Sequence record: NC_073320.1
DNA from: Escherichia phage 26
DNA length: 42,462 nucleotides
Strand: one strand, 5' to 3'
Made by a program: the position numbers and the translations under genes. Shown here one piece after another: positions 1 to 42,462 of the stretch (position 1 is the first letter of the stretch; each line of letters starts with the position of its first letter). The notes under the pieces were generated by a model. That model was not told the DNA's origin. It worked only from the letters and a program-made list of their open reading frames with translations, and ran no database searches.

Positions 1-2011
1 CATATGCGAGTAAATCACGGCACAGCGCCTGAACAATGTTTTCGCAGGCTTTGCCGCCGTGGGTGTACAGGGTAGTCCATTGGCGGGTTAACTGGTTTTC
101 ACCCTGATACTTGATTCGCACATTCGTGTTTACTCGTCCGTCTTCGTCTGTTTCCTTTGTCACACTAACGCCGATTCCCGGATACGAGAGGATACGGCCT
201 GACGGCAACTCCACACACAACCACCAACCTGGAACCTTCCTGCCGGATAAATCGGTTTCTACTGTTCTCCAGATTCGGATAGCGCGCTCGCCATTCTTGC
301 GCAGATGCGCCCCCGCCCAAAATTCACGACCCGGATTTCTTACAGCGGCTAAAATACCGTCTTTGAGGTCTCGCCAGAACGCTACTGTTTCCGGGTGTGA
401 CTCACGCCACATACGCTTGATTGCGTCACATGTGCGCCACACTTTCTTGTCCAGAATATACGACGGTCGGTCATCCTTTTCACCTGGATGTGGCGGTCGC
501 TTGGCTTCCTGGATACGCGCCCATTCATACCCTCTCGCAGTGGCCGACCAGATGTGGTCCGGGAATGTACCGTCCATTGTTTTAGCCATCTCAATAAGGT
601 CAAGACCTAGGTTTTTAGCAAACGTAACGAACGCTCCGACACCCCCCTCATAGCCGAGGCCAAGCTCGCATGCTTTGCCTATCTGTCTGATTTCCTTGAA
701 GTTTTTCTTAATATCGTCGGGGTCCATGCCGAACATCTTGCCCGCGGTTACGCAGTAAATATCCAGTCCGGCGCGGAACGTATCGAGCGCGGTTTCTTCG
801 CCCGCCAGCCACGCAAGCCCTCGTCCTTCAACGTTAGAGTAATCAGCAACAACAAACTTATGCCCAGCTTCCGGTATGATGCAACTACGAACCGTCGATG
901 CCGTTAGTTTGGCTACATCGAAACGGCGATGCGCGCGGCCCTTAAGTAACGCAGAAATCCCTTTATCCAGTTCATCATCGTGATAGTACCCGCGCGCCAG
1001 GTTCTGTGGTTGGAAGCCTTTACCCGCCCACCGCAAAGTGCGTTTTGCCCCACCGTACTGTAAACACCCCCGGCGGCGGTCGTCAGAAGAGCGGCCTAAC
1101 AGCAGCGGGTTATATTTCGTTGACGCTGTTGATGCGGCCCCGAGCCGCATTTCGATAATCGTGCGAGCGTCGTCCGGTAAATCATCATCAGCCAACAGGT
1201 CGTTAAGCGTCGATTTCTGTGCGTTGTGGATGCGGTGTGCGGGTGCGAGTTCACGCAGAATCGGAAGGAAGTCTTTACCAGTAAGCGAGCCGCCGTATTT
1301 GCGCTGTGCTTCTTCATGTAACTGTGCCTTGTGTTTCTCCACGGCTTCAATCGCGGATTCCGCCAGTGCAACGTCAACCTTAAACCCACGGTCGTTGATT
1401 AACTGGTCCAGTTCCAGTACACGGTCCTCGAACTCGGAGTTACCCCACCGCGGCAGCTTATGGAAGACTTCACGCATCGCTGTGATGTCGCTAACGGCGT
1501 ACTTGATGAACATCTCCCACTCGTCCGGGTGCGTTTCGGCGGTGTAGCGGCGTATTTTGTAGTTCTTAGGTGTCGGTTTAGAGAAACGCTGAATCAGCGC
1601 CTTACCGCGTTTGTCCTTTGCGTTGTCCGCGGACACGCCCAGCACTTCGCACAACGCATCAAGTGAACCCGGCAGCGCGTGACGAAACGCCCAAATCATC
1701 GTATCAATGGTGTTGCTTACCGGAATATCAAAGCCCCAGCAGTGCTTCATGATGAGCCTATCGAAAAGTCCACCGTTGTGCCACACCATCTTGATGCGGC
1801 TGTTCGGCTTCACCAGGCGGCGTAACGCGCGGTGTAAATCTCCCGGCATGTCGCTGCCGTCGGTGCAATCCCACACCTGCACAGGCTCGTCATCAAAAGC
1901 ATAGGTACAGATTAGCACTTCGGTGGTTGGGTGTTCAGCGTAAGCGTAGGAGCCGACTTTCTTTAAATCGGCTTCGGAGAATGTTTCAAAGTCTAAGAAC
2001 AGGTAACTCAT
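1..2011 (-). CDS. DNA polymerase, family A with 3'-5' exonuclease domain (first 670 codons; gene wraps the window junction and ends at 42272)
   Basis: ATG at 2011-2009; N-terminus MSYLFLDFETFSEADL has a DnaQ-like Exo I (D-x-E) motif; frame stays open to position 2 and joins in-frame with 42462 (..LLAYA/MINVEGGG..). Confidence 0.85.
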   Translation of the reverse strand, partial: MSYLFLDFETFSEADLKKVGSYAYAEHPTTEVLICTYAFDDEPVQVWDCTDGSDMPGDLHRALRRLVKPNSRIKMVWHNGGLFDRLIMKHCWGFDIPVSNTIDTMIWAFRHALPGSLDALCEVLGVSADNAKDKRGKALIQRFSKPTPKNYKIRRYTAETHPDEWEMFIKYAVSDITAMREVFHKLPRWGNSEFEDRVLELDQLINDRGFKVDVALAESAIEAVEKHKAQLHEEAQRKYGGSLTGKDFLPILRELAPAHRIHNAQKSTLNDLLADDDLPDDARTIIEMRLGAASTASTKYNPLLLGRSSDDRRRGCLQYGGAKRTLRWAGKGFQPQNLARGYYHDDELDKGISALLKGRAHRRFDVAKLTASTVRSCIIPEAGHKFVVADYSNVEGRGLAWLAGEETALDTFRAGLDIYCVTAGKMFGMDPDDIKKNFKEIRQIGKACELGLGYEGGVGAFVTFAKNLGLDLIEMAKTMDGTFPDHIWSATARGYEWARIQEAKRPPHPGEKDDRPSYILDKKVWRTCDAIKRMWRESHPETVAFWRDLKDGILAAVRNPGREFWAGAHLRKNGERAIRIWRTVETDLSGRKVPGWWLCVELPSGRILSYPGIGVSVTKETDEDGRVNTNVRIKYQGENQLTRQWTTLYTHGGKACENIVQALCRDLLAY

Positions 2012-2070: not shown

Positions 2071-2697
2071 TTAACGGCGACGACGTTCGCGGCGAGGTGC
2101 TTCGTCTTCTTCGTCGTCTTCCAGGTCATTAACGCTTGCAGCGACTTTAGAACCACCGAATGCTTTACCTTCGCTGACGTATTTAATCGCCAGCAGGTTA
2201 ACACCGAGAACTTTGTATTTCTGGCTGAACCAGATTTCGACGCTTACGTTAGCAACGCAGCCGCTGTAAACCTGTTCACCTTCAATCTGTTCACCGTCTA
2301 CATTGAAGTCCTGTTCTACCTGAGTCTCGCCTTTTTTAGAGGTTACAATCAGCGGTTGTTTCTGTGCCTTCGCTTTGAAGTAGAAACCTTCCGGGAAGTC
2401 TTCAAACGGATTGTCGCGCTCGGCAATGTCTTTAATCGCGCATTTATCCATGTGCTTACCTTCGCCGTAGTTTGACTTCATCCACTTCTCGGCAGCGGCG
2501 GCCCCTAGTGCTTCTTCTACAACCGCGTAAACGGTGTCGTACATTTCGTCGATTTGCGCATGGTCTGACGGCAGGATGATAGTCGCGCTGTACTGACCTT
2601 TAGTGATAGAGCCATCGTCGTTTTCACGGTCTTTTTCGCGTTCGAATACGTTAACCCATGCAGTGTTTACTTTACGCAGATTCAGTTTAATACCCAT
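2071..2697 (-). CDS. ssDNA-binding-like protein (DUF2815-type by context)
   Basis: 208-aa ORF between Cas4-like nuclease and PolA; acidic stretch NDLEDDEEDE near C-terminus; called from position and composition, no diagnostic motif. Confidence 0.45.
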   Translation of the reverse strand: MGIKLNLRKVNTAWVNVFEREKDRENDDGSITKGQYSATIILPSDHAQIDEMYDTVYAVVEEALGAAAAEKWMKSNYGEGKHMDKCAIKDIAERDNPFEDFPEGFYFKAKAQKQPLIVTSKKGETQVEQDFNVDGEQIEGEQVYSGCVANVSVEIWFSQKYKVLGVNLLAIKYVSEGKAFGGSKVAASVNDLEDDEEDEAPRRERRRR

Positions 2698-2798: not shown

Positions 2799-4040
2799 TT
2801 ATTCTAAATCTTCTTCACTAACCTGATTCCACTCAGGACGTTTGTCGTCTGCCGTTGCGACACATGGCGCACCGGTCTTGCGGGTAATGAAGTCTTTCAG
2901 TTCTTCTTCCGGTATAACTTTAACGGCCTCGGTCGGCGTCATAAGCACTTCTTTAGTCAGCTTGTCGCCGTACTTCTCGAATACCGCATCGGAATCTTTC
3001 CACGCACGGTTGCCCATCTTACCCTCAACCAGCTTGTACCCCGGCACTTTCTTACCGGAATGCAACGCGGCGGCCATAGCTTTTTCAACCTTATCAATGT
3101 GCTGACGCAACAACGGCAGCTTCTCATACTCAGCGACGAGTTGCTCCGGCGTAAGTTCCGGCGCAAAGTCGTCTTCCAGTTCTTCCGCCAGTACCGCGTT
3201 AACCGTCTTTGTACGCGCGGCGCATTGTTCTGAGAACCGACACCACTGACAACCATCGACCGACGGCCTGAAGTCCGACGCTTTCAGGTTCTTCTTGCCA
3301 CGGAAATACGCATCAAGAGCCAACATCGCACGTTTCTGCGCGAACTTAGCGAACAGTTCCAGACCTTCAACCGAGATGTCCCACTCCGATGCACCGCCAG
3401 CGTATGGCTGAAAGATGACCAGGCGAACAACTGTGATGTTATAACGTCTCTTGAGTCGGCGATAAACACCGAGAGCGTAAAGCATAAGCTGCTTGTTTTC
3501 TTTCGCTTCGACACGATGTCGTCCTGTTTTCAGGTCGCCGATGATTAGCATGTGCTCGTCGGTGTTGGCTAGTTCCTGAACGGCAACAAAGTCAGCGGTT
3601 CCGAACGTCTCTACACCTTCATATCCTGGATGCAATACCTCAGTAAGATTGACACGCATCTCGAGCTTGGCGAAAGTCGCTACATCTATAATCGCTTTGC
3701 AGTAGTCGGTGTACTTTCGCACCTGCTCAATCATGTCAGCCGTAATCAGTACCGCGCCTTTCATCGGACTGATTAGTGCCTTAATCGGGCCTTTACCCCC
3801 ATCCAGCACGTAAGCGCCGACTTCACGCACTAACGGTAACGCAGTGCCCTTGATGTACTGGTTAAGATGGACCTCAGCTATAGTGTGGCCCGCGATTCCT
3901 GTAATGGCGGATTTACCGGATGTGTTAGGAATATCTTTTTCACAGGCCAGTGATGCCGCACAGTAGAGCCACTTCTTGGCGCCTGATGGCGACAGTAGGG
4001 CGTGCACATCGTTATTGCCGCCACGTTCTTTTAAAATCAT
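2799..4040 (-). CDS. PD-(D/E)XK RecB-family nuclease with Cas4-like Cys cluster (DUF2800-type)
   Basis: motifs IIGDLKTG, EAKEN, QLMLYALG; C-terminal CQWCRFSEQC; start placed at ATG 4040 after RBS GGAGAGGG (track ORF begins at upstream TTG 4061). Confidence 0.7.
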   Translation of the reverse strand: MILKERGGNNDVHALLSPSGAKKWLYCAASLACEKDIPNTSGKSAITGIAGHTIAEVHLNQYIKGTALPLVREVGAYVLDGGKGPIKALISPMKGAVLITADMIEQVRKYTDYCKAIIDVATFAKLEMRVNLTEVLHPGYEGVETFGTADFVAVQELANTDEHMLIIGDLKTGRHRVEAKENKQLMLYALGVYRRLKRRYNITVVRLVIFQPYAGGASEWDISVEGLELFAKFAQKRAMLALDAYFRGKKNLKASDFRPSVDGCQWCRFSEQCAARTKTVNAVLAEELEDDFAPELTPEQLVAEYEKLPLLRQHIDKVEKAMAAALHSGKKVPGYKLVEGKMGNRAWKDSDAVFEKYGDKLTKEVLMTPTEAVKVIPEEELKDFITRKTGAPCVATADDKRPEWNQVSEEDLE

Positions 4041-4183
4041 TCTTCTACCCTCTCCACCCAAGCATCGTCAAAAGTATCAAAATCAAGATTATCGTATGCC
4101 GCGTACGCGTCATTTACATCTGAGTATCGGCTGTGCTCTGTAGCCACGCCATTAGTGTAAGTAAATATTGCCCAGTAAATCAT
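4037..4183 (-). CDS. hypothetical protein, 48 aa
   Basis: below track cutoff; RBS GAGGG 9 nt before ATG 4183; stop overlaps nuclease start (ATGA). Confidence 0.4.
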   Translation of the reverse strand: MIYWAIFTYTNGVATEHSRYSDVNDAYAAYDNLDFDTFDDAWVERVEE

Positions 4184-4194
4184 AATTCCGACCC

Positions 4195-4431
4195 TCAATC
4201 CAAACTATCAACGTCAAGTTCGTCCAGCATAGACTCCGCCTCATCTGCTGCGGAAATAAGCGCTTTAGCAAGTTCTCTCGCCATATAAGGCGTATACTCC
4301 ATGAATGAAAGCCCTGTCATATTATCCGCACGGTCGAAATCTAGAGTTACTCTTTTCTGCTTACCCTGTATCGTGTTGCGAACCTCAAGGCTAACTCTGG
4401 TTTCATCGTTGTTAATATCTTTAATAATCAT
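4195..4431 (-). CDS. hypothetical acidic protein, 78 aa
   Basis: start moved to internal ATG 4431, giving ATGA overlap with upstream stop. Confidence 0.5.
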   Translation of the reverse strand: MIIKDINNDETRVSLEVRNTIQGKQKRVTLDFDRADNMTGLSFMEYTPYMARELAKALISAADEAESMLDELDVDSLD

Positions 4432-4700
4432 ACCCTGTTCTCCCACTGGTCAATTAAATGTCGCGTCTTATGGTCACAGTGCATAGCCCATCCATACATT
4501 GACTCGAAGACATAAAAGTCAGGTTTGGCGAAAGTCGTGCGCTTAATCTGCGACACATGACGGCCTATATCTTTAGGCTGTGGTACTTTTCCTAAGTACG
4601 CCATCTCTTCCATCTGGTGCGCACCGGACGTCGCACGCAACAACCACAACGCCTCTGTGTTATCCCGCCGGTCTACGGCTCGGTAGAGTTGGTAAATCAT
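4428..4700 (-). CDS. hypothetical protein, 90 aa
   Basis: start moved to ATG 4700, giving ATGA overlap with upstream stop. Confidence 0.5.
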   Translation of the reverse strand: MIYQLYRAVDRRDNTEALWLLRATSGAHQMEEMAYLGKVPQPKDIGRHVSQIKRTTFAKPDFYVFESMYGWAMHCDHKTRHLIDQWENRV

Positions 4701-5032
4701 TGCGCCTTCTCCTGCATTTTCAGAAAGACAATCATAGCGGCGCGTAGAGGGTTTGTACCGATAACACATGAGTCGTCTACGTAAATCATACTGGTTGCGT
4801 CTCCGGTAATACCGTCAATAACCGCATTATCCGGTAAAGCAATCCATTCTAAATCTGTAGCTACAATCGAGATATTGTTACCGGTGATAACAGGCCACGC
4901 GTCCTGTATCCGATTACAATAATCTACTACTCCAGAAGCTAATGCCATCTGATGTCCTTGTGAGACATCTCCGTATAACGCGCGGCTGACACGTGCATTA
5001 ATTTCTATGTCTGTTAAATTTTCGTATTTCAT
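4697..5032 (-). CDS. hypothetical protein, 111 aa
   Basis: ORF in leftward early operon. Confidence 0.5.
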   Translation of the reverse strand: MKYENLTDIEINARVSRALYGDVSQGHQMALASGVVDYCNRIQDAWPVITGNNISIVATDLEWIALPDNAVIDGITGDATSMIYVDDSCVIGTNPLRAAMIVFLKMQEKAQ

Positions 5033-5075
5033 AATTCCTACCCTCAGTTAAAGCGGCCCGAAGGCCGCCGGATAG

Positions 5076-5546
5076 TTATTCTTCTTCGAAATACTTGTTC
5101 TTGATTGCTGTCAGGCGTTCCAGATATTCAGCCAGGTCTTCGTCTTTAATCGCGGCAATCTTCATCTTCTTACCGGTGAACTCTTCCAGCAGTTCATCGG
5201 AATCATCGCACGCGGCATCGCTCGGACCTTCGTTAATCGCATCGTCGATAGCCTGAATCTGGGCACGCAGAGACTGGTAATCGACTTCTTCTTTCTCTTC
5301 TTCCGGCTCTGGCGTTGGTCCCTCTACTTTAGCTTTACGCGGTTTGCGTTTCGGCTTCTCTTCTTCCGCCGGTTTAGTGTCAACGATGTCTTCACCTTCG
5401 ACCGGGATTTCTTTTGTTGCTTCTTTTGCAACAGTAGGCTCGATTGTTGCGGTTTCAGCAACGGCAACTTGTTTCGCACTGTTCGCAGCAATCAGTTCAT
5501 GCGCGACTACGAAACGTTCCAGTAATTTTAAGAATTGGTCTAACAT
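5076..5546 (-). CDS. hypothetical acidic early protein, 156 aa
   Basis: RBS GAGGAGAG; Lys/Glu/Pro-rich low-complexity middle, acidic tail ..KYFEEE; first gene after promoter P2. Confidence 0.55.
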   Translation of the reverse strand: MLDQFLKLLERFVVAHELIAANSAKQVAVAETATIEPTVAKEATKEIPVEGEDIVDTKPAEEEKPKRKPRKAKVEGPTPEPEEEKEEVDYQSLRAQIQAIDDAINEGPSDAACDDSDELLEEFTGKKMKIAAIKDEDLAEYLERLTAIKNKYFEEE

Positions 5547-5577
5547 TTGTTTCTCTCCTCTCGTTTGGTACGGGCTA

Positions 5578-5607
5578 ACTATAATAGCGAACTATTCATT
5601 ATGTCAA
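5578..5607 (-). promoter_or_regulatory. sigma70-type promoter P2 (TTGACA-18-TATAGT) with AATAG-N4-CTATT dyad; divergent from XRE gene
   Basis: minus-strand reading TTGACAtaatgAATAGttcgCTATTATAGTTAGCC; same block as P1 and P3. Confidence 0.5.
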
Positions 5608-5671
5608 TTGGCTTTCCTAAAATAATTAATATGGTACTATTCACATATAAACTGACTAAGGAGTAATTACT

Positions 5672-5887
5672 ATGCAACCATCTGAACTAGGCATCCGTGT
5701 AGAACAACGCCGTAAAGAACTCGGCATCTCCCAGCGCCGTCTGGCCGTCCTGACTGGCGTTTCCCAGGGCGCGATTAACCAGCTGGCACTCGGGGTAACT
5801 CAGGACGTACGCCCGGCAACGTTGTTTAAACTGGCGGAAGTGCTGCAAGTAGATGCTAAGTGGCTGGCGCTAGGTGAAGGGGCTTAA
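5672..5887 (+). CDS. XRE-family (Cro/CI-like) helix-turn-helix transcriptional regulator
   Basis: 71 aa; HTH LGISQRRLAVLTGVSQGAINQLALG; RBS TAAGGAG; only plus-strand gene in the early arm. Confidence 0.8.
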   Translation: MQPSELGIRVEQRRKELGISQRRLAVLTGVSQGAINQLALGVTQDVRPATLFKLAEVLQVDAKWLALGEGA

Positions 5888-5902
5888 GCCCCTTTCTTTT
5901 TA
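5876..5902 (+). terminator. rho-independent terminator of XRE gene
   Basis: AAGGGGGC-TTAA-GCCCCTT hairpin containing the stop codon, then TTCTTTTT. Confidence 0.45.
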
Positions 5903-6097
5903 TTGCACCTTTATCGGGTATCTTTTGCGAAACTTACCTAACCCGCAGTACACGCTGTAAGCCTCTGTGTAACTGTACACAACATGATACCCACGCCCAT
6001 AAGGAACTACGTTAAGAACTTCTACTATTTCGCCTCTGTGGTTGGTGTATTTATTACCTTTCAGTTCGTCGCTTACTTCTTTAAATTTACCGCTCAT
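5900..6097 (-). CDS. hypothetical protein, 65 aa
   Basis: ATGA overlap with primase-helicase stop. Confidence 0.5.
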   Translation of the reverse strand: MSGKFKEVSDELKGNKYTNHRGEIVEVLNVVPYGRGYHVVYSYTEAYSVYCGLGKFRKRYPIKVQ

Positions 6098-8334
6098 TCC
6101 AAATCCTCCTCTGTCACGGTCAGCATCTCATTCGGTTCGTATATTGTCTTTGGCCTTAATCTGTCACCCATCTTTTCCGGTATCCGGTATGTGCCGGGTA
6201 TAACTTCACCGTTAACATCGCACCCTAACATCAACTCACCGTCTTTCAGCATCTTCTCGAGATGATGGTTGGTGATGGCGTGGTCGCCAGAATTCGCCAC
6301 TATCTGCCGTTGTGTGAAGCCTCGTCCGGTGTCGTCTGACTGTTGCAGGTCTTCCAGCGCTGCAAGTATTGATTCCTTACGCCCTTCATCCTCTCCACGT
6401 TTTACAGCGTTCTTTACGTTTTCTTTACCTTCCTTTGTCAGCCCTTCTTCTCGTTCTTTCTCCTCGTCAGTCTTGAACGGCTCGAAGCCCCACGGCATCA
6501 GTACAAGCGCCTTGTGCGGCTCAGGCAGGTCCAGGTTTACGATTATGCCGTACTCCTCTGTGCTACCCAGGAACTCAACCGCGCGGTATTCTTTCGGCGG
6601 CTGGGCTTCACGGAACTGTACCGACTCAAGCACCATGCCAACCGTTTTCTGTTGGGGCCCGTGCTTAAATTTCGAGTGGTATACGTTTATCTGACGGTCG
6701 GTTGCACGCTCGATTGTCAGTTCCACGTCGACACCTGCATACAGTGCCCCGCTGCCGCGGGCTTTCTTTCCACCCTTCGGTGTATGGTGGACAACGCCTA
6801 CCGCGGCTTTAGTTGCGTCGCGTACTTCTTTCAGAATGGCGATAACTTTACCCATACCGATTGCCGTCGATGAGCTGTTCTCGTCGAACTTATCAATTGT
6901 CAGTGCCAGTGTCTGGTTGAGGGTGTCAAACGCAATCATGCCGATTGGCTCGTCGCCAGCGGTTTCACGCATTATCTTAATCAGGCTTTTCAGTTTTCCG
7001 ACTTCACCCATGTCGATGACGTGTACATAATCTTTACCCTCAACGCCGTATTTAGCCGCGAGTGCATCAATACGTGTACGTGTGGCTGCGCCACCTTCAC
7101 CGTCGATATAGAAGTGGTGGCAACGCTGGGTGTCCGCCCCTGCGAAGCGATAGCCGGCGGCGCTAAGGTACATCATCCCCAGCGTATAAAACGATTTGTA
7201 CGTGCCGGATTCCCCGACGATATCCCAGATACAATCCGACGGCATGTACCCCTCAACGACGAAATCGGCCTTTACCGGTTCCGGTAGCTCGTCCTCCCCT
7301 GAGTCATCCTCGTCTTCCAGGTCGTCGAGGCTGCATGAAACTGACTCACGCGTACCCCAACCGATGGCCTCCGCCACTTCACTGAACGGCAGCCCGGTAG
7401 CATCGCACGCGTATTTCCACACTTCTTTCGGTGACATGCCTTCGGTAGCCGTGATGTCGGTGTCGTGAATCATGGTTACGTTCGGCGCTTCGTACCCTTC
7501 GCGTGGGAAGCACAGCAGGAAGTCGTCTGGGCGCGGCGTCGGGTCGCTGTATTTTCCTGCATGTTCTGGCGTAGCGGGCATTTTCAGTCCGCGTGGTGTC
7601 ATGACGCCGCCGTACTCAAACGCCAGTGCTTCAAACGCGTCAGTAAACGCGGTGCGCAGTTCTTCCGGTATCTGGTAATCCGATGCGCTGCTAACATCAA
7701 CGGCCGGGATGCCTTCCAGTAACTCTTCTTGGTCAATCAGGTCGTTGCGGCGCGACCAGATAACCTGAGAGCCAACTGGTGGCAGGTACATCGGTTGTGA
7801 AAGAGTGAAACCGCTGCGGTCCGCACCCATGCCTTTGAAGAAGTGCTCCAGCAATCCATGACGAACACGGATGATGTCGCCACCTTCGACCGGACGACCC
7901 AATGGCATGACGACACGAAAGCGCGGGGACTCGTCGGTATGTGATGCCGTGGTATATAGACACATCGCCAGGCGGCTGCGCTTAACCAGGCGCACAGCTT
8001 CCTGATACTCTTCCGGTGTTGCGCTGTCGAAGTCCAGATACGCCAGCGACGATTTGCTTACAGATGCATCGCAGCGATAGAAGAACCCTTTACGCGCTTG
8101 CTTAAAGTCACCGGTTTCCGGGTCTTTTACGGTGCTGTGCGTAGCGTCGCACGCGGCAGTGATATAGCCCGGTGCTGTCTTAGGGTTAACCCCATCACGA
8201 ACGGCATCGAGCGGCTGGATCAACTCTTTCAGGTCGTCCAGCGTTGCCGTGTGTGTGGTTCTGACGTTTATATCCTTTTTCTCCGCACGCGCGTTGCGAC
8301 GTGACCACGAGTAGGATAGAATTACATCGGACAT
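6094..8334 (-). CDS. replicative primase-helicase (N-terminal primase-like domain plus RecA/DnaB-like ATPase)
   Basis: 746 aa; Walker A GESGTYKS in C-terminal half; C-terminus ..VTEEDLE. Confidence 0.7.
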   Translation of the reverse strand: MSDVILSYSWSRRNARAEKKDINVRTTHTATLDDLKELIQPLDAVRDGVNPKTAPGYITAACDATHSTVKDPETGDFKQARKGFFYRCDASVSKSSLAYLDFDSATPEEYQEAVRLVKRSRLAMCLYTTASHTDESPRFRVVMPLGRPVEGGDIIRVRHGLLEHFFKGMGADRSGFTLSQPMYLPPVGSQVIWSRRNDLIDQEELLEGIPAVDVSSASDYQIPEELRTAFTDAFEALAFEYGGVMTPRGLKMPATPEHAGKYSDPTPRPDDFLLCFPREGYEAPNVTMIHDTDITATEGMSPKEVWKYACDATGLPFSEVAEAIGWGTRESVSCSLDDLEDEDDSGEDELPEPVKADFVVEGYMPSDCIWDIVGESGTYKSFYTLGMMYLSAAGYRFAGADTQRCHHFYIDGEGGAATRTRIDALAAKYGVEGKDYVHVIDMGEVGKLKSLIKIMRETAGDEPIGMIAFDTLNQTLALTIDKFDENSSSTAIGMGKVIAILKEVRDATKAAVGVVHHTPKGGKKARGSGALYAGVDVELTIERATDRQINVYHSKFKHGPQQKTVGMVLESVQFREAQPPKEYRAVEFLGSTEEYGIIVNLDLPEPHKALVLMPWGFEPFKTDEEKEREEGLTKEGKENVKNAVKRGEDEGRKESILAALEDLQQSDDTGRGFTQRQIVANSGDHAITNHHLEKMLKDGELMLGCDVNGEVIPGTYRIPEKMGDRLRPKTIYEPNEMLTVTEEDLE

Positions 8335-8392
8335 GTTATATTTCCTTCAGCAAGTAATTTGGCCTCGGCGTTCACCGCGTCGGGGCTTTCTT

Positions 8393-8626
8393 TTATTCCA
8401 GGTCTTCTAAAGTAGCTGTCATTCCGCGAACTTCAGCAACAGCACTATATTTCCCACAAACATTTTTCACGACACCGGATTTAACCAACACCTTCAGCGA
8501 CCCTTCAATGATGGCGGAACTATAATACTTAAAATAACTACGTCGCAAGTCGATAACGCTGCACGACCCTTTTTTACGTGTTAATGAAACGACTGCCGTA
8601 AATACGCGTGACTGGAACTCGGTCAT
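8393..8626 (-). CDS. hypothetical protein, 77 aa, C-terminal ..TLEDLE tail
   Basis: ORF upstream of primase-helicase; shares C-terminal EDLE motif with primase-helicase and nuclease. Confidence 0.5.
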   Translation of the reverse strand: MTEFQSRVFTAVVSLTRKKGSCSVIDLRRSYFKYYSSAIIEGSLKVLVKSGVVKNVCGKYSAVAEVRGMTATLEDLE

Positions 8627-8793
8627 TTTACATTCTCCTTAATCCACGATTCCACTTTCTCCGGGTCAAACGTACCTGGCTGGCGGCGGCCCATAATGCG
8701 AATACAACAATCGGGGAACTTCCCACTCTTTAACCAGTTATTCAGTGTGCGGCGAGTAACCCCGATACGCTCGGCTACTTCATTCTGCGTCAT
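8623..8793 (-). CDS. small HTH DNA-binding protein, AlpA/excisionase-like, 56 aa
   Basis: below track cutoff; MTQNEVAERIGVTRRTLNNWLKSGKFP; ATGA overlap with downstream gene; first gene of leftward arm. Confidence 0.55.
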   Translation of the reverse strand: MTQNEVAERIGVTRRTLNNWLKSGKFPDCCIRIMGRRQPGTFDPEKVESWIKENVK

Positions 8794-9262
8794 TCTAAAA
8801 CCCTCATTATCAGTTAACGAAACAGAGTATACATTGCGAATAATGGGAAATCAAACATAATCGCACCTATTGACATTATGAAAATATTCGTTTAAGGTGC
8901 TTCTATATCTTAGTTACTTTGATTCTTGTTCACCTTGTAAGAATGCTTAACCCGTGCGTTAAGCAAAGGGTTAAGCAGCAGGCTTACTGAACACGAGAAT
9001 TATTGTAACTTTCCTTCCTAAGTATCTCCGGTTGCCCTGGGCAAGCTATATTCTCATCGGCAGCATATCTCTTAAGTATCTGATTTTCTTAATGTGCCGT
9101 AGATTCGCAACCGTAAAAATGTAACGATTATTGGGCAGGCTTAAGGCCTGCCCTTTAGTTACCAAGTAATAAGAATAAAGGCACAACCCCTGCATGAAGA
9201 ATCACAACGGCAACGTAACTATCCTCTTGCACACCCCAACATAATAGGATACTATTCACTTA
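8794..9262. other. 469-bp non-coding region between divergent early arms; candidate origin/regulatory hub
   Basis: no ORF over 16 codons on either strand; GTTAAGC x3 (8945-8976), TAAGTATCT x2 (9019-9027, 9073-9081), hairpin GGGCAGGC-TTAAG-GCCTGCCC (9133-9153), dyad copy at 9243. Confidence 0.3.
9243..9256. promoter_or_regulatory. AATAG-N4-CTATT dyad copy upstream of first rightward gene
   Basis: flanks (ccaaCATAATAGGATACTATTCA) match the reverse complement of the 23-bp element at 19486 and 29732. Confidence 0.4.
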
Positions 9263-9289
9263 TTGAAACGAGACAGAGGAGTGAGGGTT

Positions 9290-9478
9290 ATGTTTAAGAA
9301 GGGTCAGTTGGTTAAAATTAAAGAGACCAAAGAACTCTCGGTCATATTCGCGTCCCACAAAGAAAATAGATATTATTTTGCCGCATCTTTAACAGTATCG
9401 TATCTCACCGTTTTATACGCACAGGATATGGAACTCATCGGCAACAATTTTAAATTCAAAGGGCGAAGTGATGTTTAA
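9290..9478 (+). CDS. hypothetical protein, 62 aa
   Basis: ATG after RBS GGAGTGAGGG (track ORF starts at upstream TTG 9263). Confidence 0.5.
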   Translation: MFKKGQLVKIKETKELSVIFASHKENRYYFAASLTVSYLTVLYAQDMELIGNNFKFKGRSDV

Positions 9479-9701
9479 TCATATAATTAAATACGACTAT
9501 CACGATGGGGTTAAACTCGCCAAACATGAGATAGAAACATGGTGCGGCTGTAAGCCTGAATTTAGCGATTGGTTGTTCCAGGATGCACAGCACGCCATGT
9601 TAGTTATGGAGCAGGAAGGGAGAATTGTGCCGTGCAAAAGTTGCCTGAAAAATATAATCAAAACGGCATCGAATCGTGATGCTCGTGCCGACGACTCTTA
9701 G
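9471..9701 (+). CDS. hypothetical Cys-containing protein, 76 aa
   Basis: ORF overlapping upstream stop; CGC..CKSC. Confidence 0.5.
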   Translation: MFNHIIKYDYHDGVKLAKHEIETWCGCKPEFSDWLFQDAQHAMLVMEQEGRIVPCKSCLKNIIKTASNRDARADDS

Positions 9702-9715
9702 GGAGGTTGCCGTTA

Positions 9716-9973
9716 ATGAATAACACTGAACTGAAAACAGTAGCGGAATATAACCGTAAAATACGGGTTATGCGTCGTGGTGCGGGGCTGGAGCAGTTCT
9801 ATAACATGTGGCGCATTGCGACGCGCGACCCTGAGTTTCTTCAGACAGGTTATTATTCCATTAAAGGCATTATACCGATTCGTGCACGTAAGGATTATGG
9901 TTGGGTTCGTGAGACCCCTAATCTTTTGTGGTGCTGGTATTGTGGTGAATTCTGGGTAAGGGTTAAGGACTAA
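9716..9973 (+). CDS. hypothetical protein, 85 aa
   Basis: ATG after RBS GGGAGG; C-terminal CWYCGEFW. Confidence 0.5.
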   Translation: MNNTELKTVAEYNRKIRVMRRGAGLEQFYNMWRIATRDPEFLQTGYYSIKGIIPIRARKDYGWVRETPNLLWCWYCGEFWVRVKD

Positions 9974-9976
9974 GTT

Positions 9977-10120
9977 ATGAGAGAAGCATTCGAACGGTGG
10001 GCTGTCGTCGAGGGTCTGCCGGTTAACAAGGGTTCAAAGAAAGAGTACCTGAACGTTAAGACGCGTCTCGCGTGGCGGGCGTGGAAAGCTGGTGTGCAAG
10101 CTGTGATGAATACGAGGTGA
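9977..10120 (+). CDS. hypothetical protein, 47 aa
   Basis: below track cutoff; tightly packed between neighbours. Confidence 0.35.
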   Translation: MREAFERWAVVEGLPVNKGSKKEYLNVKTRLAWRAWKAGVQAVMNTR

Positions 10121-18910: not shown

Positions 18911-18940
18911 AAAAAGGCCCCATAGCGGGGCCTTAGTTTT
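18911..18940. terminator. bidirectional terminator AAGGCCCC-ATAGC-GGGGCCTT
   Basis: 8-bp GC stem flanked by A-run upstream and T-run downstream; sits between convergent portal (+) and DnaN-like (-) genes. Confidence 0.6.
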
Positions 18941-19460
18941 ATTTAAATCTTGCGGGCATTAGCACCATATATGCAGTGTTTGAAAATGATATTTTGCATC
19001 CTCTGGTTTGGTCCTGGAAATCGAAACGAGCAATTTCATTTTTGTATGCCTTAGAAATCTTGTGCGCGTCCGCCAAGTAGGGCATGGTGAATCCTATGCT
19101 ATCAACCGCCCCAGGCGTGATGTGCGCCACACGCCGCCAGTCAGGAAATTTTCCGTCTACAACATCCACCGGAAGTGTACATATAAGCGAACGACTATCG
19201 TCATAGAAAGAAACACTGCTGTAGTCGTGGTCTACTTCCGCGTAGTTAAATTTATAAGGCTCTCTCCCTTTGATGTCTATGAGAACCCCATTCTCGACGT
19301 TTGTCTTAACATTGTCGCAGAACAATCTATGGCCGTCCGTAGACACTATCAACCCTTCCGGGTCTATGTAAAAAGCATTCAGATAGTAGCGCACATCATT
19401 TTTAGCTCTGCATATTTTTGCCCCTATATACGCAGGGAAAGTAATTACTGTAGTAATCAT
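18939..19460 (-). CDS. truncated beta sliding clamp (DnaN) homolog, 173 aa
   Basis: motifs DVRYYLN, STDGHRL, VDGKFPDWRRV, IGFTMPYL, AYMVLMPARF match domain II and the C-terminal end of domain III of bacterial DnaN (recalled E. coli DnaN); RBS GAGGAGGAG; opposite strand to flanking late genes. Confidence 0.7.
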   Translation of the reverse strand: MITTVITFPAYIGAKICRAKNDVRYYLNAFYIDPEGLIVSTDGHRLFCDNVKTNVENGVLIDIKGREPYKFNYAEVDHDYSSVSFYDDSRSLICTLPVDVVDGKFPDWRRVAHITPGAVDSIGFTMPYLADAHKISKAYKNEIARFDFQDQTRGCKISFSNTAYMVLMPARFK

Positions 19461-28116: not shown

Positions 28117-28347
28117 TTACTCGTCGATATTGCTTCGATACTCCCGTAACTTCTCCAGACTTTCAATTGCTTCCGCTAAGTCGGTTCCGGTGTCCTTGTG
28201 CCCACGAAGACCCATACACAGCAGCTTCTTCAATGCGTGCTGTAGCGCCGGGTCGCGTATATCGAAGGCGCGTAGCACATCGTAAACGTCTACTGTCATT
28301 GTGCTGCCGTGAGTATTTGTCATTGTGCGGTTGTATTTTGAAGTCAT
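28117..28347 (-). CDS. hypothetical protein, 76 aa (moron cassette gene 3)
   Basis: ATGA overlap with phosphoesterase stop. Confidence 0.5.
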   Translation of the reverse strand: MTSKYNRTMTNTHGSTMTVDVYDVLRAFDIRDPALQHALKKLLCMGLRGHKDTGTDLAEAIESLEKLREYRSNIDE

Positions 28348-29474
28348 CCCAGCATCTCCGGTGAAATAGTTAAACGTGCGACCTCTCCATATTCTGCGCT
28401 ATATGTTATCACGTTAGCGCTACGACCAGACATCCATCCACCGCGGGAGGCGTATGCGTCTTTCGCGGCTAAGGTGCGGTGTTGCTCAACAATCATGTTA
28501 CGGCTTTCTACAATCTTCTGATGGTGCAGGTGGCCTACGTGGGCGTAGCTATAAACACTCTCGCCAAACGCTTTGCGGAACTTAGCTATCATAATGGGCT
28601 CGACCACCTCAAACCGGCATTTATGCCCGTGGGTAAAGAACAGCGTCGTTTTGCCGTGTCGCACCATCTTGTAAACATCCGGCGACGTATCGACGAACAC
28701 ACGCGGCTCGTTGTCGTACAGCGTACTGAACATCTCGGCCAGCCAAATCATTCCGCTTTCATCGTGGTTCCCTTGCACTATAAGCAAGCGAACATTTTTA
28801 TGCTTAACCAGCGCCATATCTACAACACGGCGCACCATACGAATCATGTAGCGAACAAGTTTTTGGTAGCGAGTGTCCGCGTCAAGGGCGTGACCGCTTG
28901 CCGGCGTAACGGCAACCAGACTATCGAAGTGCGCGAAGTCACCTAACAGGTTAATAACTCCGGTTCCAGCGTCCGGCGCTTTCTGAAACGCCGCGTCGAA
29001 CCATCGGGAGAACAGGCCTTCCGCAATCTTCATATCCCAGTCGTCGCCGCTCTCGTCGGCCCAGGCCAGCATGCCGAGATGGAAATCTGATACCGTGTAA
29101 AGATTGAGTAGTTTATCGTCTCGTTTAGCGCGAACGGCTTTAACAGGCGCAACTGGAGTAATCTCTGACTTCATGCCTTCGATTACGGCTTTCATTAACT
29201 CGACCTGACGTTCGGCGTCAGTGTCGGTCTTAACCCATTGCAATTTAGTGTTGCCGAACTCGTCCACCAGTGACGACGTTCCTTTAATCTTGTAGCCGTC
29301 TGGTACAAGATGACTGACGTCGCGGCCGTGTCCCACGCCTTTCTTAGCCAGCTTTGCTTTACGGATACGAATTACGCGGTCTGAGATGCCATATTTACGG
29401 GCTATATAGATAGTTTTAACTCCGGCGTTCAATTCTTCCTGTAACTGTTCGTCGGTTATTTTCTTCCGGGCCAT
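28344..29474 (-). CDS. HTH domain - calcineurin-like metallophosphoesterase fusion (moron cassette gene 2)
   Basis: N-terminal MARKKITDEQLQEELNAGVKTIYIARKYGISDR; phosphoesterase motifs SDFHLG, GDFAHFD, GNHD, THGH, GHLHH. Confidence 0.7.
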   Translation of the reverse strand: MARKKITDEQLQEELNAGVKTIYIARKYGISDRVIRIRKAKLAKKGVGHGRDVSHLVPDGYKIKGTSSLVDEFGNTKLQWVKTDTDAERQVELMKAVIEGMKSEITPVAPVKAVRAKRDDKLLNLYTVSDFHLGMLAWADESGDDWDMKIAEGLFSRWFDAAFQKAPDAGTGVINLLGDFAHFDSLVAVTPASGHALDADTRYQKLVRYMIRMVRRVVDMALVKHKNVRLLIVQGNHDESGMIWLAEMFSTLYDNEPRVFVDTSPDVYKMVRHGKTTLFFTHGHKCRFEVVEPIMIAKFRKAFGESVYSYAHVGHLHHQKIVESRNMIVEQHRTLAAKDAYASRGGWMSGRSANVITYSAEYGEVARLTISPEMLG

Positions 29475-42154: not shown

Positions 42155-42282
42155 TCCAGCACCCACAGATAAATTGCGATGAACATACCTAATACGGCGA
42201 CAATCATGCCGTATTGGCCTTCGTGACAGTAGACCCCAGCGGCGAATCCCGCCAGTACCGCGATAATCAGTTTACTTAGCAT
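42151..42282 (-). CDS. possible 43-aa membrane peptide
   Basis: MLSKLIIAVLAGFAAGVYC..MIVAVLGMFIAIYLWVLE, two hydrophobic segments; start overlaps polymerase end. Confidence 0.3.
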   Translation of the reverse strand: MLSKLIIAVLAGFAAGVYCHEGQYGMIVAVLGMFIAIYLWVLE

Positions 42283-42462
42283 AACGCTTCATCTCCGCAC
42301 CTTCCGCTACAAGAGGGAAACCCTCAGCCCATTCCGGCAGCGAGCACATTAATTTTTCCAGTTCGCCCACCGTGTACTCTGTGGTATCCGGAGTTTCACA
42401 TACCAATTCATCGTGTACCGAAAGCACGATGGGATACCCGCCACCCTCAACATTAATCATCG
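42272..42462 (-). CDS. DNA polymerase, family A, C-terminal 63 codons (continuation of 1..2011 across the window junction)
   Basis: contains motif C LSVHDELV; stop TAA 42274-42272; frame contiguous with position 1. Confidence 0.85.
   Translation of the reverse strand, partial: MINVEGGGYPIVLSVHDELVCETPDTTEYTVGELEKLMCSLPEWAEGFPLVAEGAEMKRYAK

What the first reader, a model, noticed from the sequence alone, without database searches (positions are those of the whole stretch)
2799..8416. Shared C-terminal -EDLE tail on three replication-arm proteins
The Cas4-like nuclease (..VSEEDLE), the primase-helicase (..VTEEDLE) and the 77-aa protein at 8393-8626 (..ATLEDLE) all end with the same acidic pentapeptide immediately before the stop. 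In T7, acidic C-terminal tails on the helicase-primase and SSB dock onto the DNA polymerase, so a shared tail here may be a docking motif that assembles a replisome or recombination complex around a common partner (PolA, the SSB-like protein, or possibly the clamp homolog).
Basis: partly seen in the sequence, partly recalled or inferred. Interest (0 to 1): 0.5.

Follow-up and report, generated by a model that had tools for sequence, protein, structure and literature searches.

The report
Shared docking tail on replication proteins
Four DNA-replication and recombination proteins of this E. coli phage carry the same short acidic peptide (…EDLE), a conserved tag whose sequence changes from phage group to phage group and which most likely plugs them all into one common partner, much as the acidic tails of phage T7's helicase and DNA-binding protein do.

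Summary
In this window (complete genome of Escherichia phage 26, a Kagunavirus), exactly three ORFs end in -EDLE: the DUF2800/Cas4-like nuclease, the primase-helicase and a 77-aa protein. About 2e-5 such triples are expected by chance.

The motif [ST]-x-[DE]-D-L-[DE] occurs twice more. One copy opens the disordered tail of the gp2.5-like SSB. The other lies in the primase-helicase interdomain linker.

It is selected at protein level, because codons and stop codons vary. In the enterobacterial clade, 'DL' lies in the last 5 residues of 50/50 primase-helicases, 60/63 nucleases and 17/17 P77 proteins, against 7/1602 other ORFs.

Across the widespread duf2800–gp2.5–polymerase module each lineage has its own version, shared by 2–5 replication proteins:
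- -EDLE
- DDF…DLV
- WDDEDEV
- -DLLG
- -DDF

Nuclease and SSB tails co-vary within genomes. No polymerase carries the tail.

Best reading: a T7-type acidic/hydrophobic docking motif aimed at a common phage-encoded receptor. The best-evidenced receptor is the SSB's β-sheet groove, seen binding this segment in the Enc34 ORF6 crystal. The DNA polymerase is the alternative or additional receptor. No interaction was tested. It is a new variant of a known kind.

The parts
2799..4040 (-). DUF2800 / PD-(D/E)XK Cas4-like exonuclease (413 aa). It is a client protein carrying the tail.
   Evidence: Pfam DUF2800 E=2.7e-66 and PDDEXK_1. PHROG 69 'exonuclease'. Four invariant Cys. 100% identical to a protein of Escherichia phage 26.
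2802..2816 (-). Nuclease C-terminal tail EEDLE, immediately before the TAA stop.
   Evidence: Among 120 clusters at over 92% identity, D-L is invariant and the last five residues are E-[ED]-D-L-E in 115 of the 120. At least 5 synonymous codon versions exist.
6094..8334 (-). Primase-helicase (746 aa; N-terminal primase domain plus AAA_25 helicase domain). It is a client protein with two motif copies.
   Evidence: Pfam AAA_25. PHROG 3228 'replicative helicase-primase', E=1e-299.
6097..6111 (-). Primase-helicase C-terminal tail EEDLE.
   Evidence: 'DL' lies in the last 5 residues in 50/50 unique homolog C-termini of the clade. At least 8 synonymous codon versions and all three stop codons occur.
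7306..7335 (-). Internal second copy of the motif (CSLDDLEDED) in the acidic linker between the primase and helicase domains.
   Evidence: The pattern C-[TSQDH]-x-x-D-L-x-[DN] is conserved in all 13 aligned clade members.
8393..8626 (-). P77: a 77-aa winged-helix protein ending in LEDLE (tail codons 8396..8410). Its function is unknown.
   Evidence: AF2 pLDDT 90.8 with an H-H-H-β-hairpin topology. Fold hits are MotA NTD, LexA DBD and RPA32C-type winged helices, all weak in E-value. PHROG 5169, unknown function. The tail is kept in 17/17 unique homologs, including a divergent variant ending ..ISRDLE.
2071..2697 (-). gp2.5-like SSB/annealase (DUF2815, Enc34_ssDNA-bd). It carries the motif and is the candidate receptor through its OB-fold groove.
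   Evidence: Pfam PF10991 E=3e-16. PHROG 112. Weak PDB hits 4jg2 and 5odj. AF2 gives a confident OB core and a disordered tail, residues 182-208.
2101..2136 (-). SSB motif copy SVNDLEDDEEDE at the start of the disordered tail. It is followed by an Arg-rich end, APRRERRRR (2074..2100).
   Evidence: It aligns with DDF[DE] of F-type SSBs and with SDAWDE of Chi-like SSBs.
1..2011 (-). DNA polymerase A, N-terminal 670 aa. The gene wraps round the ends of the window. It is a candidate receptor and never carries the tail.
   Evidence: A continuous 733-aa ORF appears when the window ends are joined. It is a remote family A polymerase.
42272..42462 (-). DNA polymerase A, C-terminal part (..AEGAEMKRYAK*).

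Best explanation
The -EDLE tail is one lineage's version of a short linear docking motif: acidic residues followed by a hydrophobic residue, here [ST]-x-[DE]-D-L-[DE]. It sits on disordered C-terminal tails and one interdomain linker of proteins of the duf2800–gp2.5–polymerase replication/recombination module.

In this phage it marks the Cas4-like nuclease, the primase-helicase (twice), the small winged-helix protein P77 and the gp2.5-like SSB. The motif would let these otherwise unrelated proteins bind, one at a time or competitively, to the same phage-encoded receptor surface. That would concentrate them where ssDNA is made, at forks and at resected ends.

The most likely receptor is the concave β-sheet groove of the gp2.5-like SSB. 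In that case SSB-SSB contacts and client-SSB contacts use the same plug. My sub-probability is about 0.4. The DNA polymerase, as in T7, is the alternative or additional receptor, at about 0.35.

Shown: the presence of the motif, its conservation, protein-level selection, lineage-specific co-variation and tail disorder. Inferred: that it binds anything, and what it binds.
For: 1. Far beyond chance and confined to replication proteins.

2. Protein-level purifying selection. EEDLE is encoded by at least 5 codon versions in the nuclease and at least 8 in the primase-helicase, with TAA, TAG and TGA stops.

3. Clade-wide conservation. 'DL' lies in the last 5 residues of 50/50 primase-helicases, 60/63 nucleases and 17/17 P77 proteins. 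It is absent from PolA (55), SSB extreme ends (48), SNF2 (33) and VRR-NUC (44), and occurs in 7/1602 other ORFs.

4. Of 127 DUF2800 50%-cluster representatives with the D-x-R anchor, 83% have [DE][FLW] in the 10-38-aa tail. Shuffled tails give 52% on average and 65% at most.

5. Each lineage has its own version, shared by several proteins:
- Chivirus: primase ..FDDEDEV, nuclease ..WDDEDDDEV, SSB ..WEDEV, SNF2 ..WDDEE, hyp71 ..EEDDV.
- Ruegeria phage: five proteins end -D[LI]L[GA].
- BcepC6B: nuclease and primase-helicase both end -GSDLA.
- Environmental clade: the last 3 residues of nuclease and SSB are identical in 10/42 unique pairs, against 2.5 expected.
- The hydrophobic residue matches perfectly between nuclease and SSB (F-F 32, L-L 54).

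6. Phages of the same host carry different versions: Salmonella Jerseyvirus -EDLE and Chivirus -DEDEV. This points to a phage-encoded partner rather than a host one.

7. The tails are disordered. AF2 gives the SSB tail pLDDT below 50. The Bas14 DUF2800 protein has a predicted disordered C-terminal region that is trimmed by proteolysis (bioRxiv 10.64898/2026.07.14.737667).

8. Receptor evidence. In the Enc34 ORF6 crystal the last traceable tail residues (..TSDAYD, the positional equivalent of SVNDLE) insert into the groove of a neighbouring SSB and bury 842 Å². The authors report similar tail-mediated contacts in both DUF2815 crystal structures and in T7 gp2.5 (PMC5686142).

9. DUF2815 SSB accompanies the nuclease in 138/139 loci.

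10. T7 precedent: gp2.5 ..EDGDF* and gp4 ..NDTDF* bind gp5. This rests on established T7 biochemistry, cited in PMC5686142 and PMC4124056.
Against: - No binding was measured or modelled. Co-folding was not possible.
- AF2 did not dock the SSB tail onto its own core.
- Crystal-packing contacts may not be physiological.
- Co-variation is confounded by phylogeny: there are few independent switches of version, perhaps 6-8 lineages.
- In this phage the terminal residue is Glu and the hydrophobic residue is Leu. T7 and bacterial SSB tails need a terminal Phe.
- In several lineages the primase-helicase lacks the motif.
- Acidic tails could also act in cis on each protein's own DNA-binding surface.
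Confidence: 0.62

Rival explanations
1. The DNA polymerase is the sole hub, as in a strict T7 model. The tails of nuclease, primase-helicase, P77 and SSB all dock on basic patches of PolA, and the SSB groove plays no part.
For: - T7 gp4 and gp2.5 tails bind gp5 (established T7 biochemistry; tails shown).
- In about 15 lineages examined, the polymerase is the only large core protein that never carries the tail.
- PolA is present in 113/116 loci.
Against: - In L056, L067, L070 and Pseudoalteromonas phage AL, PolA is replaced by a family-B-like polymerase, yet the nuclease and SSB tails are retained.
- There is no structural evidence for a receptor on this remote PolA, which matches Klenow/Taq only around motif A.
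- The only observed receptor for this tail segment is the SSB groove (PMC5686142).
Confidence: 0.2
2. Each acidic tail acts in cis as a DNA mimic or autoinhibitor of its own protein's DNA-binding surface. There is no common partner, and the resemblance is convergent.
For: - The T7 gp2.5 tail competes with ssDNA for its own cleft.
- Enc34 ORF6 lacking its tail gains dsDNA binding (PMC5686142).
- All carriers are DNA-binding proteins.
Against: - Unrelated folds (PD-(D/E)XK nuclease, AAA_25 helicase, winged helix, OB fold) would not be expected to select the same tetrapeptide.
- They would also not be expected to switch version together from lineage to lineage.
- A strain-specific 70-aa accessory ORF between the nuclease and SSB genes also ends ..KKEDLE.
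Confidence: 0.1
3. The tail docks onto a host factor (mimicking the host SSB C-terminal tip or a β-clamp-binding motif), or it is a degron for a protease.
For: - Bacterial SSB tips (D-D-D-[IL]-P-F) are acidic plus hydrophobic and recruit many proteins. This is recalled knowledge, not tested here.
- Firmicute versions (..DDDFLG*) resemble it loosely.
- Relatives encode an HslV-family peptidase.
Against: - Phages of one host use different versions. In Salmonella they are -EDLE and -DEDEV. In E. coli they are -EDLE and -DDLKD/-DLSNE.
- There is no Q-L-x-L-F clamp motif.
- Internal copies show that a free C-terminus is not required.
Confidence: 0.06
4. The feature is a nucleic-acid signal (a Shine-Dalgarno site for a coupled downstream gene, or a terminator), or it is pure chance or compositional bias.
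For: The primase-helicase stop overlaps the start of the next ORF (ATGA), and GAGGAGGA lies 8 nt upstream.
Against: - The other two tails have no coupled downstream gene.
- Codons and stop codons vary while the peptide is kept.
- About 2e-5 triples are expected by chance.
Confidence: 0.02

Closest known systems
Acidic C-terminal tails of phage T7 gp4 (helicase-primase) and gp2.5 (SSB), which dock on T7 DNA polymerase gp5/thioredoxin
   Same: - Disordered, acidic tails with a hydrophobic or aromatic residue near the end.
- Shared by the helicase-primase and a gp2.5-type SSB.
- The SSB here is a gp2.5 homolog by family.
- T7 tails read ..SWDEDDEESEEADEDGDF* and ..STDWSNDTDF*.
   Different: - The motif here is also on a Cas4-like nuclease, a winged-helix protein and (in other lineages) SNF2 helicase and small proteins. 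The T7 exonuclease gp6 has none.
- The hydrophobic residue is Leu and the last residue is Glu, not a terminal Phe.
- One copy is internal.
- The polymerase is a remote family A enzyme and in some relatives a family B one.
- No binding was demonstrated.
Tail-in-groove contacts of DUF2815 / T7-type SSBs (Enc34 ORF6, PDB 5odj; also 4jg2, 4klk and T7 gp2.5)
   Same: - Same protein family as the window's SSB.
- The tail segment seen in the neighbour's groove (..SDAYD) aligns with SVNDLE.
   Different: - It is a crystal-packing observation on SSB-SSB contacts only.
- Client proteins carrying the same plug were not considered there.
- The Enc34 version is aromatic (Y/W).
Bacterial SSB C-terminal tip (D-D-D-[IL]-P-F) as an interaction hub
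   Same: An acidic-hydrophobic short motif on a disordered tail organises genome-maintenance proteins around SSB.
   Different: - The polarity is inverted in the proposed model: many clients carry the plug and the SSB (or polymerase) carries the socket.
- The sequence differs and no terminal Phe is present.
Clamp-binding motifs (bacterial Q-L-[SD]-L-F, PIP boxes; T4 gp43 and RB69 C-terminal tails)
   Same: One short motif is shared by many replication proteins that compete for one hub.
   Different: - There is no sequence resemblance.
- The clamp-like protein here is sporadic and is sometimes itself tailed.
Cognate exonuclease-annealase pairs (λ Exo-Redβ, RecE-RecT)
   Same: A nuclease and an ssDNA annealing protein encoded side by side are expected to interact specifically. 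Co-varying tails would give that specificity.
   Different: Those pairs interact through folded domains rather than a shared tail, and the protein families are different.

Membership tests
T7-type acidic C-terminal docking tails (gp2.5 and gp4 onto gp5) | The tail is carried by the helicase-primase and by a gp2.5-type SSB. | tested here: met
   The primase-helicase ends ..EEDLE*. The SSB is PF10991/PHROG 112 and has SVNDLEDDEEDE in its tail.
T7-type acidic C-terminal docking tails (gp2.5 and gp4 onto gp5) | The tail is acidic and intrinsically disordered. | tested here: met
   SSB residues 182-208 have pLDDT below 50. Nuclease tails are 26% acidic against 15% for the protein body. The DUF2800 C-terminal region is reported as disordered.
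T7-type acidic C-terminal docking tails (gp2.5 and gp4 onto gp5) | The C-terminal residue is aromatic (Phe). | tested here: not met
   The window tails end -D-L-E*. Sister clades have F or W, but often not as the last residue.
T7-type acidic C-terminal docking tails (gp2.5 and gp4 onto gp5) | The tail binds basic patches of the DNA polymerase. | not testable with these tools
Bacterial SSB-Ct hub motif | A D-D-D-[IL]-P-F motif at the extreme C-terminus of the SSB. | tested here: not met
   The window SSB ends ..APRRERRRR*. The motif lies on client proteins and lacks P-F.
β-clamp-binding motif | A Q-L-[SD]-L-F or Q-L-x-L-x-L consensus. | tested here: not met
   The tails read S/T-E-E-D-L-E, with no Gln and no paired hydrophobic residues.
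duf2800–gp2.5–polA phage replication/recombination module (PMC8093625) | Adjacent DUF2800 nuclease, DUF2815 SSB and family A polymerase genes. | tested here: met
   Nuclease at 2799-4040, SSB at 2071-2697 and PolA at 1-2011 plus 42272-42462, all on the minus strand. The same order is found in relatives.
Short linear motif (SLiM) under selection | The motif is conserved while its flanks and codons vary, and it is independent of domain context. | tested here: met
   It is kept in a divergent P77 variant with a different linker.

The most novel reading that the evidence does not exclude
The duf2800–gp2.5–polymerase module uses an inverted SSB hub. The gp2.5-like SSB provides the socket (its β-sheet groove). 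Every enzyme that makes or uses ssDNA carries a lineage-specific plug: nuclease, primase-helicase, SNF2 helicase and small winged-helix or accessory proteins. Plug and socket co-evolve rapidly, giving each phage lineage a private address code that insulates its replication/recombination machinery from co-infecting phages and from the host.
Probability: 0.3. Interest if true: 0.7.

Novelty: new variant of a known kind. Interest (0 to 1): 0.5.

Why it matters
The duf2800–gp2.5–polymerase module is one of the commonest replication/recombination cassettes of tailed phages and prophages. It occurs in Enterobacteria, Staphylococcus, Streptococcus, Clostridium, Bacteroides, marine Alphaproteobacteria and others. 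The nuclease search alone returned 11,066 representative proteins (50%-identity clusters) with E ≤ 0.001. Its protein-protein architecture is unknown.

A shared tail specific to each phage lineage gives a direct, cheap handle on that architecture:
- Peptides of 8-12 residues can be used as baits to find the hub.
- Tail swaps can test specificity.
- The motif can flag unannotated small proteins such as P77 as replisome or recombination accessories.

The finding also extends the T7 acidic-tail principle from two proteins to a whole set that includes a nuclease. That nuclease family is already known as a trigger of retron type IX immunity.

Tried and rejected
1. The search for homologous proteins on the nuclease returned only clusters over 92% identical in the listed top 120. 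This was useless for distant conservation, so I switched to the 50%-cluster search and to loci.

2. The search for related loci failed three times. A 25-sequence alignment had no conserved stretch. Single divergent proteins P0135 and P0129 found nothing. Clade-specific alignments worked.

4. AF2 of the full SSB was run to see whether the tail docks in cis. The tail has pLDDT below 50, which is uninformative about the receptor.

5. P77 was compared with the winged-helix C-terminal domain of the ~680-aa primase-helicases of the other clade. hhalign gave probability 1.3%, so there is no evidence of homology.

6. RBS or DNA-signal explanation: rejected on codon and stop-codon variation.

7. The clamp-like 173-aa protein as hub: rejected as unlikely. 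It gives only sub-threshold DnaN-domain hits, was found in about 9 of roughly 170 loci, and is itself tailed in L050 and L071.

8. My greedy ORF caller misses genes in high-GC loci because of antisense ORFs. Presence and absence of SSB and PolA were therefore redone with HMMs on stop-to-stop ORFs.

9. The automatic parser for the motif's hydrophobic residue produced 8 apparent mismatches. All were parsing artefacts on inspection.

10. Literature searches found no description of shared tails in this module. The library is not exhaustive.

Full report
**What the window is.** The 42,462-bp window is the complete, circularly permuted genome of Escherichia phage 26. Its nuclease is 100% identical to a protein of that phage on a 42,462-bp contig. 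It is about 90% identical at DNA level to Kagunavirus phages such as Bas73.

The replication arm runs on the minus strand in this order:
- HTH_17 protein
- 77-aa protein (P77)
- primase-helicase
- small ORFs
- P156
- DUF2800 nuclease
- gp2.5-like SSB
- PolA

The PolA gene is split by the ends of the window, at 1-2011 and 42272-42462.

**Checking the observation.** The nuclease ends ..VSEEDLE*, the primase-helicase ..VTEEDLE* and P77 ..ATLEDLE*.
- Of 510 stop-to-stop ORFs of at least 40 aa in six frames, only these three end this way.
- With 70 genes and the window's composition, 1.3-2.1e-5 triples sharing any C-terminal tetrapeptide are expected.
- The three DNA versions differ at synonymous positions.
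- Two further copies of [DEN]DLE exist: SVNDLEDDEEDE at the start of the SSB tail, and CSLDDLEDED in the linker between the primase and helicase domains. These five are the only such strings in the proteome.

The shared feature is therefore a motif, [ST]-x-[DE]-D-L-[DE]. It is carried by four proteins, and a free C-terminus is not obligatory.

**Conservation in the enterobacterial clade.** I fetched 80 IMG/VR loci plus annotated Kagunavirus, Jerseyvirus, Dhillonvirus and Serratia phage records. The nucleases in this set are as little as 36-45% identical to the query P0128, itself about 45% identical to the window's nuclease.

| Protein | Unique C-termini with 'DL' in the last 5 residues |
|---|---|
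| Primase-helicase | 50/50 |
| Nuclease | 60/63 |
| P77 | 17/17 |
| PolA | 0/55 |
| SSB (extreme end) | 0/48 |
| SNF2 | 0/33 |
| VRR-NUC | 0/44 |
| Other ORFs | 7/1602 |

. One of the seven other ORFs is a 70-aa accessory ORF inserted between the nuclease and SSB genes, ending ..KKEDLE.

- The residues after D-L vary together. Examples are nuclease ..DDDLAN with primase-helicase ..DEDLEN..DADLSD with ..DDDLSD, and ..DEDLSNE with ..DDDLKD.
- The internal linker copy is conserved in all 13 aligned primase-helicases.
- The SSBs of this clade keep the motif at the start of a longer tail: ATDDDLDGD and CSDEDLDND.
- A divergent P77 variant with a different body and linker still ends ..ISRDLE.
- EEDLE is written with at least 5 codon combinations in the nuclease and at least 8 in the primase-helicase, and all three stop codons occur. 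Selection therefore acts on the peptide.

**Beyond the clade.** The DUF2800 nuclease family is large: 11,066 representatives at E ≤ 0.001.
- The best 150 representatives nearly all show ..SDKRPA.. followed 5-12 residues later by x-D-D-[F/L]-[DE]-D-[VLI]. Many have a second acidic-hydrophobic element at the very end, -DL[IVLA]*.
- [DE][FLW] occurs in 83% of tails, against 52% in composition-preserving shuffles and a maximum of 65% over 1000 shuffles.

In every lineage examined, two to five replication proteins share that lineage's own version:

| Lineage | Proteins and tails |
|---|---|
| Staphylococcus Triavirus | nuclease ..AEDDFDKL*, SSB ..AEDDFDEL..DEDFL*, VirE ..SLEDLI* |
| Burkholderia BcepC6B | nuclease ..DDFEV..GSDLA*, primase-helicase ..VDFEGSDLA*, SSB ..DDFEA..EDELD* |
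| Chivirus SeWh-1 | primase ..PFDDEDEV*, nuclease ..AWDDEDDDEV*, SSB ..AWDEDEDWEDEV*, SNF2 ..VWDDEE*, hyp71 ..EEDDV* |
| Ruegeria DSS3-P1 | five proteins ending -D[LI]L[GA]* |
| Pseudoalteromonas AL | primase ..DEDYF*, SSB ..FEDDF*, p53 ..SGDF* |
| Erwinia SNUABM_08 | primase ..DDDDML*, SSB ..DDDDAL*, SNF2 ..DEDDLL*, hyp03 ..AEEDL* |

Further points:
- In 42 unique nuclease/SSB pairs of an environmental proteobacterial clade, the last three residues are identical in 10 (-DLV, -DLA, -DMI, -GLV, -ALA). Shuffling loci gives 2.5.
- The motif's hydrophobic residue matches perfectly between nuclease and SSB: F-F 32, L-L 54. Every apparent mismatch was a parser artefact.
- These co-variation numbers are inflated by shared ancestry. 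The number of independent switches is small, roughly 6-8 lineages, but they all go the same way.

**What the carriers are.**
- The nuclease is a PD-(D/E)XK, Cas4/RecB-like enzyme with four invariant cysteines. A Dhillonvirus homolog (Bas14_0045) is an experimentally active nuclease whose C-terminal part is disordered and is trimmed by proteolysis (bioRxiv 10.64898/2026.07.14.737667).
- The SSB belongs to the Enc34 ORF6 / T7 gp2.5 family. AF2 gives a confident OB core and a disordered tail.
- P77 is predicted with pLDDT 90.8 as a minimal winged helix. It has only generic fold neighbours: MotA NTD, LexA DBD and RPA32C/Stn1-type winged helices.
- 'duf2800-gp2.5-polA' is a recognised conserved module (PMC8093625).

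**Which partner.**

A host partner is unlikely, because phages of the same host use different versions.

Among phage proteins, only the polymerase and the small VRR-NUC resolvase never carry the tail. By analogy with T7, this favours the polymerase. T7 gp2.5 ends ..EDGDF* and gp4 ends ..NDTDF*, while gp5 and gp6 have no such tail.

Two facts favour the SSB itself:
- In the Enc34 ORF6 crystal the last ordered residues of the tail insert into the concave β-sheet of the neighbouring SSB and bury 842 Å². These residues are ..TSDAYD, which align with SVNDLE here and with the shared W/F-D-D-E-D motif of Chi-like phages. The authors report similar tail-mediated contacts in both DUF2815 crystal structures and in T7 gp2.5 (PMC5686142).
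- The SSB accompanies the nuclease in 138/139 loci. PolA is replaced by a family-B-like polymerase in L056, L067, L070 and phage AL without loss of the tails.

Neither argument is decisive, and as in T7 both receptors may be used. The clamp-like 173-aa protein gives only sub-threshold DnaN-domain hits. It is sporadic and carries a tail itself in two loci, so it is a client at most.

**Mechanism proposed.** The presence, conservation and disorder of the motif are shown. The binding is inferred. The motif is a plug on flexible tails or linkers, and the socket is on the SSB, the polymerase or both.
- SSB-SSB contacts through the same plug would give cooperativity.
- The nuclease, the primase-helicase (two plugs per subunit) and P77 would compete for sockets. 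They would thus be held where ssDNA is produced, handing nascent ssDNA to the SSB/annealase or coupling to the polymerase.
- Co-evolution of plug and socket would explain why each lineage has its own version.

**Rivals.**
- Cis-acting DNA-mimic tails explain the acidity. They do not explain the identical, co-switching sequence on unrelated folds.
- Host-factor docking conflicts with the diversity of versions among phages of one host.
- An RBS or DNA signal, or chance, is excluded.

**Comparison and novelty.** The principle is known from the T7 acidic tails, the bacterial SSB-Ct hub and clamp-binding motifs. I found four things described nowhere:
- extension of the shared tail to the Cas4-like nuclease, a winged-helix protein, SNF2 and small proteins
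- the internal copy in the primase-helicase linker
- the lineage-specific versions and their within-genome co-variation across a very widespread module
- the possibility that the SSB is the socket rather than the plug-bearer

The defining T7 feature of a terminal Phe is not met in this phage, and binding was not testable. I therefore file this as a new variant of a known kind, not as a member of the T7 case.

Noticed in passing
window 1-2011 and 42272-42462 (minus strand): The PolA gene (733 aa) is split by the ends of the window. The record is a circularly permuted complete genome that starts inside PolA. The ORF listing therefore shows only spurious ORFs in 1-2000.
   Followed up: yes
window 5076-5546 (minus strand); L002 8043-8573, L003 3433-3912, L004 9705-10427, L088 6308-6784: P156 (PHROG 3127, unknown function) belongs to a family encoded just upstream of the nuclease in several clades. 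It shares a ..LKxEDYxAxLxEL.. C-terminal region. In the enterobacterial clade it has its own conserved aromatic-acidic end (KYFEEE*, EFYDAE*, TYFELED*, KYYEVEE*). This may be a second kind of docking tail.
   Followed up: partly
window 2074-2100 (minus strand): In the enterobacterial clade the SSB tail does not end with the motif. It continues into Arg-rich and acidic blocks: ..EDEAPRRERRRR*, ..RKKRRNYEDDEE*, and long repeats in Smarc3 and JL1. The F-type and Chi-type SSBs lack this extension. Its role is unknown.
   Followed up: no
window 18939-19460 (minus strand); L006 13231-13746: A 173-aa protein lies on the opposite strand inside the structural module. It gives sub-threshold hits to the DnaN central domain (E=0.005) and to PHROG 947 'processivity factor'. 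Its best PHROG hit, 3007, is named 'RusA-like resolvase'. A 171-aa counterpart lies next to PolA in BcepC6B. In L050 and L071 the homologs end -EGLV* and -GDLV*, like the nuclease and SSB tails of that clade.
   Followed up: partly
L056 ~8217-10030, L067 12314-14116, L070 12654-14423, L173 4984-6759: In three metagenomic loci and in Pseudoalteromonas phage AL, the PolA slot of the module holds a ~590-600-aa family-B-like polymerase. It matches PHROG 1252, and its PDB hits are Sulfolobus PolB1 and E. coli Pol II. The rest of the module is unchanged.
   Followed up: partly
window 4195-4446 (minus strand): An 83-aa ORF ending ..MLDELDVDSLD* has no homolog in any fetched locus. Its acidic, Leu-containing end loosely resembles the motif. 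It may be a strain-specific accessory client or an unrelated acidic protein.
   Followed up: partly
L120 11194-11406: A 70-aa accessory ORF inserted between the nuclease and SSB genes of one Kagunavirus-like contig ends ..EMCKKEDLE*. It is an unrelated small protein that has the same tail.
   Followed up: no
window 6094-6097: The primase-helicase stop codon overlaps the start of the next 65-aa ORF (ATGA). The GAGGAGGA that encodes E-E-D can double as its Shine-Dalgarno site, so this tail's DNA has a dual use in this phage only.
   Followed up: yes
window 28344-29474 (minus strand): A 376-aa metallophosphoesterase (PHROG 704 'DNA repair exonuclease', SbcD/Mre11-like) is encoded on the opposite strand within the tail-gene region, away from the replication arm. 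It ends ..ISPEMLG*, with no tail motif.
   Followed up: no
L002 10982-14080 and 14674-17139: In Jerseyvirus Ent1 the PolA and SNF2 helicase genes carry annotated inteins. The window's orthologs do not.
   Followed up: no
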